A program made the translations under genes and the position numbers. Source: Spirochaetota bacterium (GTDB lineage Bacteria > Spirochaetota > UBA4802 > UBA5550). From it: 64,000 bases of DNA. Shown here one piece after another: positions 26,866 to 64,000 of the stretch. The notes beneath the pieces are model-generated. The model saw only the letters and a program-made list of their open reading frames with translations. It was not told where the DNA came from and made no database searches. The stretch lies in contig DAONAJ010000003.1 in NCBI GenBank assembly GCA_035400945.1, positions 88,676 to 152,675 on the forward strand. The letters run 5' to 3'. How positions within the stretch are numbered: the first letter of the stretch is position 1; each line of letters starts with the position of its first letter.

Positions 26866-28197
26866 TTGAAGATTGAAAACATACCAATGTTTTTCTTGTC
26901 CCGGTATACCGATGCGCCGGTGGAAATCCGGGAAAAGGCGAAGCTGTTCCTGTACCTCATAACTTCAACGCTGGCATTCTGCACGGTTTTTTTCATCGTG
27001 CTCAATTTCACGATGGACCTGCGGGTCACCAACTATATTCTTTTCGGATTATGCTTTGTCCAGATCGCGAGCCTGTTCCTTCTCAGGTGGGGCCGCTACC
27101 ATGCGGCGGTGAATATTTTCTCGTTCTGTTTTGCCGCAGCGGTGATCTTCCTCGGGTTCTACGGCCAGGTCTGGCGAGGCAGGATGGACTACATCACCAA
27201 TTTTTATTTTTTCCCGTTAATAATCATTTTCACCGCCCTCTTCTGCCGGCCGTCATGGATCATCTTCCTCACATCGCTGCTGGTGGCAAGCGGCATACTA
27301 TCATTTGTCGTGTATCTGCACAATCCCATAAGTAACGATTTCTTCCCGGTTGTCCAGGGCGCCCTGGTCGACTATACCGCTTCGGCCATCATGACCGTAA
27401 TATTGTGCTTCACCATTCTCATGATCAACAGGAGGATTACCGAGGCGGCGCGCCGAGAAGAGCATTCCCGGGAACTGCATGCCGAGCTCGAGATCGCCCG
27501 GCTCATCCAGTCCAACCTGATGCCCGATGCTCCGAAGGACGATCCCCGCATCACCGTGTACGCCAGCTACCTTCCCATGGAGGAGATCGGCGGCGACTTC
27601 TACGACTTCTTCACCTACGGCGACGAGCTCCATATATTCATAGCCGACGTGTCCGGCCACGGCATCCCCGGCGCCTTCATGGCCCTCATTTCCAAGGTTG
27701 CCCTTCTCCATTCCATATCGGACACGGCACCAACCACGCAGGTGCTGAGCCGCATCAACGAGGTGCTCTGCGACTGCACGGTGCTGGGAAATTTCGTATC
27801 CGGCTTTTACTGCCGCATCGACAAGGCATCGAAGAAAATCCGCTACACCTCGGCGGGGCACATACCGCAGATCCTCTACCGGAAGCGCGACAACACGTTT
27901 CACGAGCTCTATTCAAAGGGAATGGCCCTGGGGTGGGAGAACAACATCCAGCTGTCGGAGGAGACCATTGACCTTGAACCGGGGGACCGCCTGGTGTTCT
28001 TCACCGACGGCGTGACCGAGTGCATGAATTCCCGCCGCGAGATGTTCTCGGACGGGCAGCTGCGAGATTACATCATAAACAACAGCCACCTGCCGGTGGA
28101 GTCTTTCTCGAAAAATCTTATCATGAATCTTGTCAATTTCTCGAAGGACGAGAAATTCCACGACGATCTGACATTGATAGCCCTCGATATCAACTGA
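26866..28197 (+). CDS. SpoIIE/PP2C protein phosphatase with N-terminal 6-TM sensor module (family A)
   Basis: 443 aa; polytopic N-terminus resembling the MCP and HK N-termini (FFLSRYTD...KAKLFLYL...LLRWGRYHAAVN), then SpoIIE domain (GDFYDFFTYGDELHIFIADVSGHGIPGAF...FFTDGV); track start is TTG at 26866, first ATG at 26887. Confidence 0.8.
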   Translation: MKIENIPMFFLSRYTDAPVEIREKAKLFLYLITSTLAFCTVFFIVLNFTMDLRVTNYILFGLCFVQIASLFLLRWGRYHAAVNIFSFCFAAAVIFLGFYGQVWRGRMDYITNFYFFPLIIIFTALFCRPSWIIFLTSLLVASGILSFVVYLHNPISNDFFPVVQGALVDYTASAIMTVILCFTILMINRRITEAARREEHSRELHAELEIARLIQSNLMPDAPKDDPRITVYASYLPMEEIGGDFYDFFTYGDELHIFIADVSGHGIPGAFMALISKVALLHSISDTAPTTQVLSRINEVLCDCTVLGNFVSGFYCRIDKASKKIRYTSAGHIPQILYRKRDNTFHELYSKGMALGWENNIQLSEETIDLEPGDRLVFFTDGVTECMNSRREMFSDGQLRDYIINNSHLPVESFSKNLIMNLVNFSKDEKFHDDLTLIALDIN

Positions 28198-28203
28198 GGC
28201 GGC

Positions 28204-29913
28204 CTACGCCTTCTCCCCGCGATACTGGGTCGGCGTGACGTTCATCACCTTCATGAAGGCCCGGTTGAAGGTGGGGAGGCTCTCAAAGCCCACCGAAAAA
28301 GCTATTTCAATGATATTCGCGCTGGATTCGCGGAGCTTTCGCGCAGCCTCCATGACGCGGAGCTCGTTGATGAACTCGCTTATCTTCTTGTTGGTATAGA
28401 TTTTGAAAAACCTGCCAAATGAGTCGGGGTGCATGTTGAGGGACGCCGCGAGCCCCTCCCGTGAAATGTCGGAGCGGTAATTCTCCCGTATGAAGGCTAT
28501 GGCCTTTTTCATCTTGTCCTCGATGTTGGGAGTGACGGACTGCTGCCTGACCGCGGCGTTACGGTCGATCATCCGCTGGTAGAGGTAGGCGTTCTCGATC
28601 GCAGAGGCGGCCTGGGACACGTAGACCCCGGCGATCCGTATGTCGCGGTCGGTAAAGGCGTCCAGGGCCGCCGGACGCTGCATGCAGCAGACGCCGATGG
28701 CCTTCCCCCGCAGGTTCACCGGCACCAGCAGCGAATGCCGGACGTCAGGCCCCCCGTCATTGCCGGATGGGTTCCCCCCGGGGTCATGCCTGTTCATGAT
28801 CAGGTGCTGGTTTTCCCACAGCACCCGCTCGGCCGCGCCGGCAATCCATTCCTGGCTTTCGCCTTCGCCAATCGCAGCCGCCCGGTCGAGGCGGCCAGTC
28901 TCATCGATCATGAAGAGGTATGCCCGCTCGGCGCCGACGATCTCCGCCCCCTTCTCAAGAGAGCGGTTCAGCAGCTTGTCTATGTTGGTAATGATGCTGA
29001 TGTCCTGGCTCAGGCTGCTCCCCGGGGCCGGCATGTCCTCGGGCCCCCCGCCCCTGTCCGGCGCCCGCATCGACGACTCGCCCGCGATCTCGGCGTAGAG
29101 CCGGTGGGTAATCTCGCTCAGGAAAAGCTCCATGGTGCGGTCATTGACCTTCTCCTCAAGCTGATGGGTCAGCTCCTCGACCTCGCGGTGCAGGTCGATG
29201 AATCGGCTCTGGAGAACGTGGGCCATTGAAAAAATGATAAACATGTAGGCATATTCGGTCAGGTAGATGAAGGGGTACATGCCGGCGCCCACCATCACGT
29301 CATTCATGGAAGCGGCCAGGAAGGGGACCATCGAGACCAGGATGGGGCGGACACGGGGCTCCTCGTCGTTGCGGTAGTGGTACAGGAGCACGTAAAAAAG
29401 GAACAATCCTATGAGCACCATGGATGCGTACTGTACGGCATAGATGATGCCGGGGTCCACCTCGTTGTAAACGATGGAGATGCCGCCCAGGGCGATGTAC
29501 TTGACATAGGGCCGAGACGCCGACAGCGTCAGCTCATTCCTGATCACGATTCCCAGAAGGAATAGGACGGAGAGCCACGCGGTGATGACGAGAAAGGGGA
29601 GACGCGACCTGAACCTGGTGAAATAATAGAGAAACCAGGCCACTGAAACGGTGAAGACGCAGAGCGAGGCAAACTGACAGCGCTGCCAGAACATCCCCTG
29701 CTCCGGCGAAGAGGCGTTGTACAGCCCCGCGCAGAATACGTCATAGAGGGCGATGGAGAGACAGGTCGCGGCAAAGGCAAGGTTCTCCATTTCAAGGCGG
29801 CGCCGGAAATACATCCAGAAATAGTAGAATCCCACATACAGTGAAACGGCAGCCATGATGACCGCCGGAATTGAAACCCAGTTCATCAAGCACCTCGTAT
29901 CATAATGCGGCAC
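28204..29913 (-). CDS. 7TM receptor (family B)-GAF-AraC one-component transcriptional regulator
   Basis: 569 aa; N-terminal 7TM paralogous to 16267-17892 (VSLYVGFYYFWMYFRRR, FWQRCQFASL), GAF-like middle domain, C-terminal AraC-type HTH (IAFSVGFESLPTFNRAFMKVMNVTPTQYR). Confidence 0.8.
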   Translation of the reverse strand: MPHYDTRCLMNWVSIPAVIMAAVSLYVGFYYFWMYFRRRLEMENLAFAATCLSIALYDVFCAGLYNASSPEQGMFWQRCQFASLCVFTVSVAWFLYYFTRFRSRLPFLVITAWLSVLFLLGIVIRNELTLSASRPYVKYIALGGISIVYNEVDPGIIYAVQYASMVLIGLFLFYVLLYHYRNDEEPRVRPILVSMVPFLAASMNDVMVGAGMYPFIYLTEYAYMFIIFSMAHVLQSRFIDLHREVEELTHQLEEKVNDRTMELFLSEITHRLYAEIAGESSMRAPDRGGGPEDMPAPGSSLSQDISIITNIDKLLNRSLEKGAEIVGAERAYLFMIDETGRLDRAAAIGEGESQEWIAGAAERVLWENQHLIMNRHDPGGNPSGNDGGPDVRHSLLVPVNLRGKAIGVCCMQRPAALDAFTDRDIRIAGVYVSQAASAIENAYLYQRMIDRNAAVRQQSVTPNIEDKMKKAIAFIRENYRSDISREGLAASLNMHPDSFGRFFKIYTNKKISEFINELRVMEAARKLRESSANIIEIAFSVGFESLPTFNRAFMKVMNVTPTQYRGEKA

Positions 29914-62798: not shown

Positions 62799-63177
62799 CG
62801 GGCGAGCCATGGGAATGGGGCGCCCTGCCTCGGCTGCATGCTGGCACAGATGGGGAAGACCCCGGGCACGGCAGCAGTGAGCACCCCAGACCGGGCCTCC
62901 ATCCTTAAATCCCTGTAAACCGGTTGGTCGGCTAACAAAAATCAATAGCCCCCGTTAATGAAATTGGTCATTCCCCCTGACCGATACTGTCATGCCAGAA
63001 TCACTGATTCCTGTCCAATGAACCACAACTCCTGGTTATTTACTTTTAATAACCGACAAAGTACCTTATAATTGAATATGAAATTTGATATATAATCATG
63101 GGTCCTTTTTTCATGCTCATATATCACCGGGAGGACGTTAAGCAAAATCGTTCAACAAGGAATTCAAGCCATGAGTT

Positions 63178-64000
63178 GTATTCCAGGGAGAGACATCATG
63201 TACCGTTATTATCCGGATTCGACCATTCCAGGGATTTTCAGAAACAGGGCCTCATACTACCGTGATGATACCTTCATGAGACACAGGGTATCCGATTTCT
63301 GGATCGATATATGCTGGGAAGAGACCTATATCAAATCCAATGCCATCTCTTCATACCTGATAAACTGCGGGGTCAATCCGGGAGACAGGATCGCCATTTA
63401 CTCAGGGAACAGGCCGGAATGGGTATTCGCGGACCTGGGGATCCTTTCCACCGGTGCCGCGGACGTTACGATACCGGTAACCCTGCAGGCGCCGGAAGCG
63501 GCCTATATCCTCAGTGACTCTGACGCGACAATCTGCTTCTGCTCCGGCAGACGCGAGGCGGACAATATTCTCTCGTCGAGGAATGAGCTCCCCGGCCTTG
63601 AACGGATAATCGTCTTTGACCACGGGGATTACGGCAATGAAATGATTACGACACTCGACATGGTGATCCAGGATGGACTGCTTAACGACCTCAGCGAAGA
63701 GATTGAAAGCCGCGTCAGGGCGATCGACCCTGACGAGGTCATGACCGTTATGTACATGCCGGATATCGCCGGGTATCCGAAAGGGATCAGGCTTTCCGCC
63801 AGTGACGTCCTCGGAGAACTGCCTGACTTGAGAATGCTGGATATCCACCCCGCCCGGAATGCCGTCCTTTCCGTCCTCCCCCTCTCTGACGCCCTGGAAC
63901 GAAGCTCGGACTATTACCGGACAATGTACCGGGGAGGATCGATCGCCTTCTCTTCCGGCGCCGACAGGCTCCACGAGGAAATCCGGGAGGACCTCAGCGG
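63178..64000 (+). CDS. AMP-binding (acyl-CoA synthetase-like) protein, 5' part; runs off window end
   Basis: N-terminal domain of ANL superfamily (GDRIAIYSGNRPEWVFADLGILSTGAADV); phosphate-binding loop degenerate (YMPDIAGYPKG instead of T[SG]GTTGxPKG); not in the ORF track because it has no stop in the window. Confidence 0.65.

What the first reader, a model, noticed from the sequence alone, without database searches (positions are those of the whole stretch)
26866..64000. Overall: lipid-handling gene set (ceramidase, START x2, SCP2-GRE, acyl-CoA ligase-like, Hbd) interleaved with dedicated sensors
Taken together, the window looks like a locus for sensing and catabolising an exogenous complex lipid, possibly a sphingolipid. 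The steps are extracellular release of a sphingoid base by ceramidase, lipid carriers (START), a membrane receptor-transcription factor (7TM-GAF-AraC) and downstream radical and aldolase chemistry. No single described system combines these parts.
Basis: inference. Interest (0 to 1): 0.6.

Follow-up and report, generated by a model that had tools for sequence, protein, structure and literature searches.

The report
Ceramidase regulon, not a 37-kb locus
The listed lipid genes are really there, but only the ceramidase and its membrane-bound regulator form a unit, together with a neighbouring kinase–aldolase–aminotransferase–transporter operon that may be an undescribed oxygen-free route for breaking down sphingolipid bases.

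Summary
The gene identifications hold: neutral ceramidase, 7TM-GAF-AraC regulator, two START proteins, a glycyl radical enzyme (GRE) with an SCP2-fold N-terminus, Hbd and a partial acyl-CoA ligase. The idea of one 37-kb lipid locus does not hold. The range also carries fliK-flgD-flgE, TrpRS, RluD and isocitrate dehydrogenase (ICDH). In more distant Spirochaetota the START pair sits beside ICDH in a housekeeping backbone, and the TetR-GRE block and Hbd are absent. Elsewhere the SCP2-GRE travels as TetR-GRE-activase without ceramidase or START.

The coherent unit is window 21016-32405, largely left of the stated range. It comprises a lipoprotein ceramidase, 7TM-GAF-AraC, and an operon of FGGY kinase, class II aldolase-family protein, class III aminotransferase and FLVCR-like MFS transporter. 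A conserved ~33-bp element lies upstream of both the ceramidase and the FGGY operon. It occurs only at those two sites in 64 kb and recurs at the same positions in relatives.

Ceramidase is linked to this cassette in three different gene orders, including Smithella, a different phylum.

Inferred, not shown: ceramide is hydrolysed to a sphingoid base, which is imported, transaminated to a 2-ketone, phosphorylated at C1, and cleaved to DHAP plus a fatty aldehyde. Direct cleavage fits phytosphingosine best.

The parts
30094..32262 (-). Neutral/alkaline ceramidase, 722 aa, with a lipoprotein-type signal peptide (MGNGKKKFFMAVFLFSMLCLVYPGC) and a low-complexity linker
   Evidence: Pfam N and C domains, E 6e-153 and 5e-52. 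Match to P. aeruginosa CerN 2ZWS, E 2e-135, with H97, H99, R160, H204, E411, Y448 and Y460 conserved. Translation. Below the NCBIfam equivalog cutoff, 412 < 1200.
32373..32405 (-). Conserved operator/promoter element upstream of the ceramidase: TTCAAATACTGATCGGTCAGATTTTGATATGAC. Its TTGATA is the -35 of an 11/12 sigma-70-like promoter.
30013..30036 (-). Strong intrinsic terminator after the ceramidase (10-bp stem, T-run); the ceramidase is monocistronic
   Evidence: conserved in relatives
28204..29913 (-). 7TM (HisKA_7TM) - GAF - AraC-HTH membrane one-component regulator; public gene call 28204-29886
   Evidence: Pfam. Hydrophobic segments. Always between or next to the ceramidase and the FGGY operon. 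Family confined to Spirochaetota.
26866..28197 (+). Membrane-anchored PP2C (SpoIIE) phosphatase inserted between the AraC gene and the FGGY operon. It occurs only in this genome and in L009, so membership is doubtful.
26627..26659 (-). Second copy of the conserved element, upstream of the FGGY operon: TTCATTTTCTGATTGGTCTGTTTTTGATAAGAC
24891..26492 (-). FGGY-family kinase, 533 aa, xylulokinase-like, assigned to no curated equivalog
   Evidence: Pfam. NCBIfam XylB 280 < 380. PDB xylulose kinase 2ITM, E 1.5e-44.
24043..24735 (-). Class II aldolase/adducin-family protein, 230 aa, nearest L-fuculose-1-phosphate aldolase
   Evidence: PF00596 on the public gene call. NCBIfam below all cutoffs. Alignment to E. 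coli FucA: E73, H92, H94, H155 and N29 conserved; Y113 replaced by D.
22396..23886 (-). Class III (GSA-aminomutase-like) aminotransferase; public gene call 22396-23865
   Evidence: FumI aminopentol aminotransferase 6HBS is among the PDB hits, E 8e-28.
21016..22254 (-). MFS transporter, about 12 TM; nearest solved relatives are the FLVCR2/FLVCR1 choline/ethanolamine transporters
   Evidence: E 1.8e-32
18034..20973 (-). Large (979 aa) glutamate dehydrogenase directly downstream of the MFS gene. Possible accessory that recycles the transaminase's glutamate. Present here and in L010 and L039 only.
13740..14441 (-). HAD-IB phosphatase (histidinol-phosphatase/SerB-like). Possible member: its orthologue directly follows the MFS gene in L128 and L130. 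Here it is separated from the operon by an MCP, a 7TM-PP2C and the GDH.
32479..34722 (+). PAS - HATPase_c_2 (RsbW-like) protein, divergent from the ceramidase. Adjacent in L007-L010, L029 and L039 but absent in L016, L018, L019 and L022. Link unproven.

Best explanation
The finding's range is a mosaic. The functional unit lies at window 21016-32405.

Components:
- An exported lipoprotein neutral ceramidase.
- A membrane-embedded 7TM-GAF-AraC one-component regulator.
- An operon encoding an FGGY kinase, a class II aldolase-family enzyme, a class III aminotransferase and an FLVCR-like MFS transporter.
- Possible accessories: a HAD-IB phosphatase and a large glutamate dehydrogenase.

Shown:
- Gene identities.
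- Conserved adjacency in nine Spirochaetota loci.
- Independent re-association of a ceramidase with the cassette in Smithella and in a second Spirochaetota lineage.
- A conserved ~33-bp element overlapping the -35 of both the ceramidase promoter and the FGGY-operon promoter, found nowhere else in the window.

Inferred mechanism:
1. The ceramidase releases a fatty acid and a long-chain amino-alcohol (sphingoid) base outside the cytoplasm.
2. The 7TM-GAF-AraC protein senses the lipid in the membrane and activates both promoters.
3. The MFS transporter takes the base in.
4. The aminotransferase converts C2-NH2 to a ketone, and the FGGY kinase phosphorylates C1-OH. The order of these two steps is unknown.
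5. The class II aldolase-family enzyme acts on the resulting 1-phospho-2-keto-3-hydroxy compound.

For 4-hydroxylated bases (phytosphingosine) a FucA-type retro-aldol would give DHAP plus a fatty aldehyde without oxygen. Bases lacking the 4-OH would need extra steps.

START x2, TetR-SCP2-GRE, Hbd and the acyl-CoA ligase are separate modules or backbone genes.
For: Synteny:
- Ceramidase/AraC/FGGY/aldolase/AT3/MFS is co-directional in L008, L009, L010, L016, L018, L019, L022, L029 and L039, at 64-93% ceramidase identity.

Independent architectures:
- Smithella L013-L015 has RuBisCO-like protein/AT3/FGGY/TetR/MFS divergent from DUF2147/ceramidase/ceramidase. Its ceramidase is 77% identical to the window's, but AT3 is 47% and FGGY 35%, so the pieces were not transferred together.
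- L128 has DUF2147/x/AraC/FGGY/MFS/HAD, with a convergent ceramidase at 55% identity.
- AraC orthologues at 49% and 44% identity still sit directly upstream of the FGGY cassette. Paralogues at 41% and 31% do not.

Shared operator:
- There are only two sites in 64 kb, with 0.02 expected by chance.
- The same two positions carry it in every cluster locus. It is absent from all GRE, START, Smithella and other AT3 loci.
- It is present upstream of FGGY in L128 and L130.
- Information content is 1.21 bits per column, against 0.18 and 0.43 in the flanks. Conserved bases extend beyond the search pattern.

Substrate class:
- The MFS is nearest to the FLVCR choline/ethanolamine transporters.
- The HAD-IB is nearest to histidinol-phosphate and phosphoserine phosphatases, which act on 2-amino-alkyl phosphates.
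- DUF2147 is lipocalin-like.
- The AT3 is related to FumI, which deaminates a sphingoid-like aminopentol.
- The aldolase keeps the FucA Zn ligands and E73.
- In Smithella an MtnW-like RuBisCO-like protein replaces the aldolase. Both folds act on 1-phospho-2-keto compounds (family knowledge).

Precedent:
- In P. aeruginosa the AraC-type SphR senses sphingosine and induces cerN (PMC5150637, PMC3900636).
Against: - No enzyme activity, ligand or DNA binding has been shown.
- The cassette TetR/aldolase/AT3/MFS/FGGY is widespread in metagenomes, with 580 confirmed AT3 stretches of which 80 were examined. Only one of those 80 loci has a ceramidase within 10 kb. Four carry sugar-type ABC permeases, so many cassettes may use small hydrophilic amino-polyols.
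- A DHAP-type retro-aldol needs a C4 hydroxyl, which sphinganine and sphingosine lack (own reasoning).
- In the aldolase, FucA Tyr113 is replaced by Asp, as in AraD epimerase, and two phosphate-site residues differ. Aldolase, epimerase, dehydratase and decarboxylase activities cannot be told apart.
- L128 has the kinase, MFS, HAD and ceramidase but no AT3 or aldolase nearby.
- No aldehyde dehydrogenase is linked.
- 17 of 30 close ceramidase homologues (Oligoflexus, Myxococcota, Gammaproteobacteria, Turneriella) show no cassette within 10 kb.
- The motif pattern was derived from the same sequences it was then counted in.
Confidence: 0.6

Rival explanations
1. The whole of 26866-64000 is one sphingolipid sensing and catabolism locus, in which the START proteins carry the lipid, the SCP2-GRE does radical chemistry on it, and Hbd and the acyl-CoA ligase feed beta-oxidation.
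For: - All of these genes are present.
- The START proteins are exported.
- The GRE carries a lipid-binding-type SCP2 fold.
- Gene order from RluD to HTH-cupin is kept in the close relative L037.
Against: - The shared operator is absent from all of these genes.
- The GRE block and the Hbd block are absent from the same backbone in L123-L126.
- The GRE family's conserved partners elsewhere are TetR and an activase only.
- No activase is present in the window.
- The ligase is absent in L037, and Hbd is absent in L008 and L010.
- Housekeeping genes are interleaved and equally syntenic.
- Smithella and L128 use a DUF2147 lipocalin near the ceramidase, not START.
Confidence: 0.06
2. The regulon is real, but the substrate is not a classical sphingoid base. 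The ceramidase-family amidase releases a short or unusual amino alcohol from another N-acyl lipid, such as an N-acyl serinol or an N-acyl amino-polyol. The cassette is then a general 2-amino-polyol to ketose-1-phosphate to triose route.
For: - The cassette is mostly free-standing.
- It is sometimes found with sugar-type ABC permeases.
- The MFS resembles transporters of small amino alcohols and weakly resembles acid-sugar transporters.
- The kinase and aldolase are sugar-enzyme-like.
Against: - The active site of the ceramidase is fully CerN-like, E 2e-135.
- A lipocalin-type DUF2147 carrier recurs beside the ceramidase.
- The regulators are a membrane-embedded sensor and TetR, both typical of hydrophobic ligands.
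Confidence: 0.2
3. The unit is for detoxification rather than catabolism. Sphingoid bases are antimicrobial, and the kinase, aminotransferase and transporter modify or export them, analogous to the protective role of sphBCD in P. aeruginosa.
For: - sphBC protect P. aeruginosa from sphingosine by metabolising it (PMC11398299).
- MFS proteins are often exporters.
- A kinase plus a HAD phosphatase in one cluster looks regulatory or protective.
Against: - The organism itself makes the base with a co-regulated exported ceramidase. That is pointless for defence unless the fatty acid is the prize.
- An aldolase-family or RuBisCO-like enzyme downstream suggests carbon-skeleton breakdown.
Confidence: 0.1
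4. There is no functional link. The ceramidase and the cassette are neighbours by descent only, and the shared motif is merely a similar promoter.
For: - Most of the evidence comes from one Spirochaetota family.
- The 3' half of the motif is a -35 box.
Against: - Three different gene orders, in two phyla, bring a ceramidase next to the cassette.
- The CTGAY-N3-TCWG core just upstream of the -35 (a CTGAT-N2-ATCAG-type inverted repeat at the ceramidase sites) and the flanking TTCA are conserved at both promoters while the surrounding sequence is not.
- The motif follows the AraC orthologue down to 44% identity.
Confidence: 0.04

Closest known systems
Pseudomonas aeruginosa sphingosine regulon (SphR, cerN, sphA, sphBCD)
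   Same: - An AraC-family regulator is coupled to a secreted neutral ceramidase and a metabolic operon.
- The ceramidase is homologous (2ZWS, E 2e-135) with the same catalytic residues.
- The logic is the same: a lipid product induces its own release and metabolism (PMC5150637, PMC3900636).
   Different: - The regulator here is membrane-embedded (7TM + GAF), not the soluble SphR.
- The metabolic genes are unrelated. Here they are an FGGY kinase, a class II aldolase-family enzyme, a class III aminotransferase and an MFS. There they are a periplasmic oxidoreductase, a cytochrome c and a PLP aldolase that depend on respiration.
- No sphA-type porin is present.
- The organism is a Spirochaetota MAG from anaerobic digesters.
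L-fucose / L-rhamnose type catabolism (FGGY ketose kinase + DHAP-dependent class II aldolase, FucK/FucA)
   Same: - It pairs an FGGY kinase with a FucA-like metal aldolase.
- Zn ligands H92, H94 and H155 and E73 are conserved.
- The predicted intermediate is a ketose-1-phosphate analogue.
   Different: - An aminotransferase takes the place of an isomerase, so the entry compound would be a 2-amino-polyol rather than an aldose.
- FucA Tyr113 is Asp here.
- Scores are below all curated cutoffs.
- The transporter is amino-alcohol-like.
Fumonisin catabolism in Sphingopyxis (FumD esterase, FumI aminopentol aminotransferase)
   Same: A hydrolase frees a sphingoid-like amino-polyol, and a class III aminotransferase then converts its C2 amine to a ketone. 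FumI (6HBS) is a detectable relative of the AT3.
   Different: - FumI is a distant relative, E 8e-28 against 3e-67 for GSA aminomutases.
- Fumonisin lacks the C1 hydroxyl, so no kinase or aldolase step is known there.
Eukaryotic sphingoid-base degradation (sphingosine kinase + PLP-dependent S1P lyase)
   Same: C1 is phosphorylated and a C-C bond is then cleaved, giving a fatty aldehyde.
   Different: - The kinase is from a different family (DAGK-like versus FGGY).
- The cleavage chemistry is different: a PLP lyase cutting C2-C3 to phosphoethanolamine, versus a proposed metal aldolase cutting C3-C4 to DHAP after transamination.
PFL2 / glycerol dehydratase-type glycyl radical eliminases (for the SCP2-GRE)
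   Same: - PFL-like and Gly_radical domains are present.
- The Gly motif VRISGY and the GCVEP Cys-Glu loop are present.
- The nearest structures are A. fulgidus PFL2, glycerol dehydratase, HypD and CutC.
   Different: - It has an N-terminal SCP2 domain.
- It scores below TIGR01774 and all equivalog cutoffs.
- The family's usual neighbours are TetR and an activase. Here the activase is missing from the window.

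Membership tests
Neutral/alkaline ceramidase (PF04734 + PF17048; CerN type) | Both the N-terminal catalytic domain and the C-terminal domain are present at full length | tested here: met
   E 5.7e-153 (1-509 of 509) and 5e-52 (1-169 of 169)
Neutral/alkaline ceramidase (PF04734 + PF17048; CerN type) | Zn ligands and catalytic residues of P. aeruginosa CerN (H97, H204, E411, Y448; H99, R160, Y460). The residue roles are recalled from the 2ZWS literature. | tested here: met
   All seven are conserved in the phmmer alignment to 2ZWS
Neutral/alkaline ceramidase (PF04734 + PF17048; CerN type) | Reaches the NCBIfam equivalog score (NF041649) | tested here: not met
   412 bits against a cutoff of 1200. 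It is a family member but not the curated Pseudomonas-type equivalog.
Neutral/alkaline ceramidase (PF04734 + PF17048; CerN type) | Hydrolyses the N-acyl bond of ceramide | not testable with these tools
   Needs an enzyme assay
SphR-type sphingosine regulon | AraC-family HTH regulator genetically coupled to the ceramidase | tested here: met
   HTH_18/HTH_AraC. Adjacent to the ceramidase in the eight relatives that have both genes in full (L008-L010, L016, L018, L019, L022, L029), and also in L039 and L128.
SphR-type sphingosine regulon | The ceramidase promoter and the metabolic-operon promoter carry the same regulator site | tested here: met
   A conserved 33-bp element at 32373-32405 and 26627-26659 only. 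Binding itself is untested.
SphR-type sphingosine regulon | Soluble SphR-like ligand domain and sphBCD-type genes (cytochrome c, oxidoreductase, PLP aldolase) | tested here: not met
   The regulator is 7TM + GAF. No such genes were found in the 64 kb.
SphR-type sphingosine regulon | A sphingoid base is the inducing ligand | not testable with these tools
   Needs binding or reporter assays
DHAP-dependent class II aldolase (FucA type) | Aldolase_II fold with Zn ligands H92, H94 and H155 and catalytic E73 | tested here: met
   PF00596; alignment to E. coli FucA
DHAP-dependent class II aldolase (FucA type) | Tyr113' and the full phosphate-site residues; a curated FucA score | tested here: not met
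   Y113 is D, T43-G44 are S-Q, and S72 is M. Scores of 116-125 bits fall below cutoffs of 264-400. The enzyme could instead be an epimerase, dehydratase or decarboxylase of the same fold.
Glycyl radical enzyme, PFL2/glycerol-dehydratase clade | PFL-like and Gly_radical domains, a glycine loop and a Cys loop | tested here: met
   E 7e-166 and 3e-23. VRISGY and GCVEP are visible in the translation.
Glycyl radical enzyme, PFL2/glycerol-dehydratase clade | A cognate radical-SAM activase encoded next to it | tested here: not met
   No activase-like sequence is present in the window or in L037. One is present next to homologues in L119-L122.
SCP2 lipid-binding domain (N-terminus of the GRE) | SCP2 alpha/beta fold | tested here: met
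   AF2 pLDDT 87.5. Foldseek hit to UbiJ-SCP2 6H6P, E 4e-5, and the top 46 hits are SCP2-type. Pfam found no family over the N-terminal ~198 residues, and a sequence profile of the domain found no SCP2 chain in the PDB.
START lipid-transfer proteins as part of the ceramide system | START domain present | tested here: met
   30.2 and 32.0 bits against a cutoff of 22
START lipid-transfer proteins as part of the ceramide system | Co-regulation or cross-lineage co-occurrence with the ceramidase | tested here: not met
   No operator is present. The pair travels with ICDH in a housekeeping backbone. It is absent from the Smithella and L128 ceramidase loci.
Fatty-acid beta-oxidation operon (Hbd + acyl-CoA ligase) | Co-located thiolase, enoyl-CoA hydratase and acyl-CoA dehydrogenase; conserved position | tested here: not met
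   Hbd stands alone. It is absent in L008, L010 and L123-L126. The ligase lies 22 kb away and is absent in L037.

The most novel reading that the evidence does not exclude
An undescribed oxygen-independent pathway for sphingoid-base catabolism. The steps are an exported ceramidase, FLVCR-like uptake, class III transamination at C2, FGGY phosphorylation at C1, and cleavage by a class II aldolase-family enzyme (or, in some lineages, a RuBisCO-like protein) to DHAP plus a long-chain aldehyde. The preferred substrates would be 4-hydroxylated bases such as phytosphingosine. In Spirochaetota the pathway would be switched on by a membrane-embedded 7TM-GAF-AraC lipid sensor acting on a defined 33-bp operator. 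Its core cassette, TetR/aldolase/AT/MFS/kinase, is widespread in soil, sediment and sludge bacteria.
Probability: 0.33. Interest if true: 0.8.

Novelty: new variant of a known kind. Interest (0 to 1): 0.6.

Why it matters
How bacteria break down sphingoid bases is largely unknown. The best-studied case, P. aeruginosa sphBCD, is still chemically unresolved and depends on periplasmic oxidation (PMC11398299).

This work yields a compact set of testable objects:
- a ceramidase-linked cassette whose predicted chemistry needs no oxygen;
- a predicted operator;
- a candidate membrane lipid sensor.

If the pathway is right, it would explain how anaerobes in digesters and sediments, and possibly guts, recycle abundant plant, fungal and Bacteroidota sphingolipids. 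It would also assign a function to a widespread, unannotated operon.

The analysis also shows that the broader '37-kb lipid locus' should not be pursued as a unit. It flags the SCP2-fused glycyl radical enzyme as a separate, widespread orphan family.

Tried and rejected
- **One coherent locus across 26866-64000.** Rejected on comparative grounds and on motif grounds.
- **SCP2 identity by sequence.** Pfam and a profile against PDB sequences gave nothing real. Only the fold comparison worked.
- **A GRE activase or its remnant after the GRE.** None was found.
- **Recurrent neighbours of the ceramidase in Oligoflexus, Myxococcota, Gammaproteobacteria and Turneriella.** None were found beyond an AraC-type HTH in Turneriella L017.
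- **Extra conserved partners of the AT3 cassette, such as an aldehyde dehydrogenase or a ligase.** None were found. One apparent 712-aa family was an antisense artefact of high-GC DNA.
- **Literature on an aminotransferase + FGGY + class II aldolase pathway, bacterial sphingoid-base utilisation, or SCP2-GRE fusions.** Nothing relevant was found in the held library.
- **Rfam and tRNA scans of the window.** Both were empty.
- **A methionine-salvage-like reading** (MtnB-like dehydratase, MtnW-like enolase, HAD phosphatase). It is chemically possible for 4-hydroxy bases, but its final dioxygenase step does not suit an anaerobe. It is kept only as a variant.
- **Hbd with a 137-aa N-terminal extension.** Rejected; this is an ORF-calling artefact.

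Full report
**Source and gene map.** The window has 55-60% G+C, and real genes stand out by GC3 of 0.75-0.87. Identical copies of the ceramidase lie on contigs from anaerobic-digester and other metagenomes. The closest genomes are uncultured Spirochaetota/Leptospirales-like MAGs.

Pfam and NCBIfam scans give this map for the finding's range:
- membrane PP2C, 26866-28197(+)
- 7TM-GAF-AraC, 28204-29913(-)
- neutral ceramidase, 30094-32262(-)
- PAS-HATPase_c_2, 32479-34722(+)
- fliK, flgD, flgE, 34976-38344(+)
- TrpRS
- Hbd (true gene 40645-41502)
- an RRM protein
- a LuxR-type protein
- RluD
- two exported hypothetical proteins
- a double FMN-reductase protein
- TetR, 50783-51415(+)
- GRE, 51442-54399(+)
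- Band7
- a 7TM hybrid histidine kinase
- two START proteins, 59153-60629(-)
- NADP-isocitrate dehydrogenase
- HTH-cupin
- a truncated AMP-binding ligase

To the left of the range, all on the minus strand, lie:
- FGGY kinase, 24891-26492
- class II aldolase-family protein, 24043-24735
- class III aminotransferase, 22396-23886
- MFS transporter, 21016-22254
- a 979-aa glutamate dehydrogenase
- a 7TM-PP2C
- an MCP
- a HAD-IB phosphatase, 13740-14441

**Check of the observation.**
- The ceramidase aligns to P. aeruginosa CerN (2ZWS) at E 2e-135. H97, H99, R160, H204, E411, Y448 and Y460 are all conserved.
- It begins with a lipoprotein-type signal peptide, so 'extracellular release' is reasonable.
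- The 'SCP2-GRE' call is right, but only at the level of fold. Pfam and a PDB sequence profile saw nothing. An AlphaFold model of the conserved N-terminal domain (pLDDT 87.5) matches UbiJ-SCP2, archaeal SCP2, alkylsulfatase SCP2 domains and human SCP2, and the top 46 Foldseek hits are all of that type.
- The summary left out the flagellar, translation and TCA-cycle genes that fill about half of the range.
- The aldolase lies outside the range.
- No GRE activase is present in the 64 kb.

**Is it one locus?** Three tests were applied.

*Synteny at increasing distance.*
- In a close relative (L037, 86% GRE identity) the order from RluD to HTH-cupin is kept. The hybrid kinase and the ligase are missing.
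- In more distant Spirochaetota (START 65-69% identical; L123-L126) the order is HTH-cupin/ICDH/START2/START1/hyp135/hyp357/hyp364/RluD/RRM/TrpRS/FlgE/FlgD.
- There the block FMN reductase-TetR-GRE-Band7-hyp205-hybrid kinase (window 49172-58541) and the block Hbd to hyp196 (39.9-45.7 kb) are absent.
- The START pair is therefore part of a conserved backbone beside ICDH. The GRE and Hbd are later insertions into that backbone.

*Distribution of the GRE.*
- The ~985-aa SCP2-GRE is a well-conserved family, at 59% identity or more over its full length. It occurs in Spirochaetota, Bacillota, Thermodesulfobacteriota, Chloroflexi and others.
- Its recurrent neighbours are a TetR regulator and a radical-SAM activase (L119, L121, L122). 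In a Bacillota MAG it has neither (L038).
- It is never found with a ceramidase or START.

*Regulation.* This is described under the shared promoter element below. On all three counts the '37-kb lipid locus' fails.

**What is linked to the ceramidase.**
- tblastn of all window proteins against 30 loci holding close ceramidase homologues showed one co-directional block: ceramidase/7TM-GAF-AraC/FGGY/aldolase II/AT3/MFS. It occurs in L008, L009, L010, L016, L018, L019, L022 and L029, and in metagenome locus L039.
- The PP2C gene between the AraC gene and FGGY occurs only here and in L009.
- In Smithella (Thermodesulfobacteriota; L013-L015) two tandem ceramidases and a DUF2147 protein are divergently transcribed from MFS/TetR/FGGY/AT3/RuBisCO-like protein.
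- The Smithella ceramidase is 77% identical to the window's. Its AT3, MFS and FGGY are only 47%, 49% and 35% identical. The ceramidase was therefore acquired separately and ended up beside a resident cassette.
- A third architecture appears around a 49%-identical AraC orthologue (L128/L129): MCP/DUF2147/x/AraC/FGGY/MFS/HAD-IB, with a convergent ceramidase at 55% identity.
- A 44%-identical AraC orthologue (L130/L131) precedes FGGY/AT3/aldolase/MFS/HAD-IB with no ceramidase in 9 kb.
- Paralogues at 41% and 31% identity have no cassette.
- The AraC-type sensor is thus dedicated to the FGGY cassette. The ceramidase has joined that cassette repeatedly.

**Shared promoter element.**
- Intergenic sequences reveal a ~33-bp element, TTCAWWWWCTGAYNNNTCWGNWWTTGATAWGAC, upstream of both the ceramidase and the FGGY operon.
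- In the window the pattern occurs only at 32374-32397 and 26628-26651, even with three mismatches allowed. The expectation is 0.02 at two mismatches or fewer.
- Across all fetched loci it lies at exactly these two positions in each cluster locus. It also lies upstream of the ceramidase in L007 and L011. It occurs in no GRE, START, Smithella or other AT3 locus.
- Diverged versions sit directly upstream of FGGY in L128 and L130.
- Over 25 sites the element carries 1.21 bits per column, against 0.18 and 0.43 in the flanks. The conserved TTCA upstream and CA downstream lie outside the pattern used for searching.
- Its TTGATA is the -35 of an 11/12 sigma-70-like promoter. The CTGAY-N3-TCWG core sits just upstream of it, which is the usual place for an AraC-type activator (family knowledge). 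At the ceramidase sites this core reads as a CTGAT-N2-ATCAG-type inverted repeat.
- A strong terminator follows the ceramidase (30013-30036).
- Caveat: the pattern was built from these same sequences. Its existence is therefore not independent evidence, but its exclusivity and its persistence across divergent genomes are.

**What the cassette may do.** None of the three enzymes reaches a curated equivalog score.
- FGGY kinase: XylB 280 < 380.
- Aldolase: FucA/AraD-like, about 125-138 bits against cutoffs of 251-264.
- AT3: GSA-aminomutase-like, 304 < 398.

Several clues point to an amino-alcohol substrate, and in ceramidase-linked loci to a lipid one.
- The aldolase keeps the FucA Zn ligands, E73 and N29. 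It has Asp in place of Tyr113 and changes in the phosphate site.
- PDB relatives of the AT3 include FumI, which deaminates the sphingoid-like fumonisin aminopentol.
- The nearest solved relatives of the MFS are FLVCR2 and FLVCR1, which transport choline and ethanolamine (E 2e-32).
- The HAD-IB enzyme that follows the MFS gene in L128 and L130, and has a 47% orthologue in the window, is nearest to histidinol-phosphate and phosphoserine phosphatases. Both act on 2-amino-alkyl phosphates.
- DUF2147, found next to the ceramidase in two lineages, is lipocalin-like.

These clues fit the following scheme.
1. A 2-amino-1,3-diol or 2-amino-1,3,4-triol is imported.
2. It is transaminated to the 2-ketone.
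3. It is phosphorylated at C1, giving a ketose-1-phosphate analogue.
4. That analogue is processed by a metal enzyme of the class II aldolase fold, or in Smithella and a few metagenome loci by an MtnW-like RuBisCO-like protein.

Both folds are known to act on 1-phospho-2-keto compounds such as methylthioribulose-1-phosphate (family knowledge). A FucA-type retro-aldol needs a hydroxyl on C4. Direct cleavage to DHAP plus a fatty aldehyde therefore fits phytosphingosine-type bases. Sphinganine or sphingosine would need additional steps. This last point is my own chemical reasoning. All of the scheme is inference.

**Limits.**
- The cassette [TetR]/aldolase/AT3/[MFS]/FGGY is common in metagenomes. 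There were 580 confirmed hits. Among the best 80, the aldolase appears in 38, FGGY in 36, MFS in 17 and a RuBisCO-like protein in 4-6.
- Only the Spirochaetota-like L039 has a ceramidase within 10 kb.
- Four loci carry sugar-type ABC permeases.
- Many close ceramidase homologues in other phyla show no cassette nearby.
- The general cassette may therefore serve a range of amino-polyols, with the ceramide link specific to some lineages.

**Literature.**
- P. aeruginosa SphR, an AraC-type regulator, binds sphingosine and induces cerN and sphBCD (PMC5150637, PMC3900636).
- The chemistry of sphBCD is unresolved and periplasmic-oxidative (PMC11398299).
- Searches found no paper describing an aminotransferase-FGGY-class II aldolase route, bacterial growth on sphingoid bases through such genes, or an SCP2-GRE fusion.

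**Verdict.** The ceramidase and its membrane AraC sensor do belong to a probable sphingolipid-base regulon. Its partners, however, are the kinase/aldolase/aminotransferase/MFS operon to the left of the stated range, not the START, GRE, Hbd or ligase genes. I rate the regulon as a new variant of a known kind, the SphR/CerN logic with different parts, and give it moderate to high interest because it makes an open question directly testable.

Noticed in passing
window 50783-54399; loci L037, L038, L119-L122: TetR plus a ~985-aa glycyl radical enzyme with an N-terminal SCP2-fold domain. This is a widespread orphan family, at 59% identity or more across several phyla, and it usually comes with an adjacent activase. 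In this genome and in L037 the activase is not adjacent, and none lies within the 64 kb. L119 has two tandem paralogues.
   Followed up: partly
window 32322-32339 (-), 5' leader of the ceramidase: A conserved palindrome or hairpin, AAACCGGCTGTTTGGTTT, followed by a T-run. The pattern ACCGNCNGNNTGGT is kept in all relatives, between the promoter and the start codon. It could be an attenuator or a second protein-binding site. There is no Rfam match.
   Followed up: no
window 32428-32436 (-) and the upstream regions of L008, L010, L016, L019, L029: A short conserved box, TACTCTGAC, about 30 bp upstream of the operator at the ceramidase promoter. Inverted copies (GTCAGAGTAA) lie further upstream in L016, L018, L019 and L022. 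Its function is unknown.
   Followed up: no
L013-L015 (Smithella MAGs), e.g. L014 709-11983: Two tandem ceramidases and a DUF2147 lipocalin-like protein lie divergent from MFS/TetR/FGGY/AT3 and an MtnW-like RuBisCO-like protein that takes the place of the class II aldolase. The shared 134-bp intergenic region holds a perfect inverted repeat, AAAAAGC-TT-GCTTTTT.
   Followed up: partly
window 14587-16143 (-); L008, L016, L019, L022, L029, L039, L128: A methyl-accepting chemotaxis protein recurs right next to the cassette in two different architectures. This hints at chemotaxis towards the same substrate.
   Followed up: no
window 16267-17892, 26866-28197, 28204-29913, 56598-58541: Four signalling proteins in one window carry multi-pass (about 6-7 TM, 7TMR-type) membrane modules. 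They are fused to different outputs: PP2C, PP2C, AraC-HTH, and a hybrid histidine kinase. The N-terminal 7TM region of the AraC protein is about 50% identical to that of the 7TM-PP2C.
   Followed up: partly
window 39900-45700: This stretch has lower GC3 (0.47-0.67 against about 0.8) and several doubtful ORFs. It carries Hbd, a LuxR-type protein and small hypotheticals, and it is variable or absent in relatives. It is probably a recent insertion.
   Followed up: partly
window 49172-50620: A 482-aa protein with two FMN_red/flavodoxin-like halves lies immediately upstream of TetR-GRE. The arrangement is conserved with them in L037 but absent from GRE loci in other phyla.
   Followed up: no
window 46955-49142 and 58736-59143: Three hypothetical proteins are conserved in the Spirochaetota backbone between RluD and the START pair. 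Two are exported (one with a Leptospira-type LA_0442-like N-terminus) and one is a small membrane protein.
   Followed up: no
L113-L115, L118 (human-gut metagenome contigs): AT3 homologues at 60% identity sit beside a TetR gene and dTDP-glucose 4,6-dehydratase, without a kinase or aldolase. The aminotransferase subfamily therefore has at least one other genomic context.
   Followed up: no
L017 (Turneriella sp.), about 12112-12354: An AraC-type HTH gene lies directly next to a 71%-identical ceramidase in a genome without the cassette nearby. This is another ceramidase-AraC pairing.
   Followed up: no
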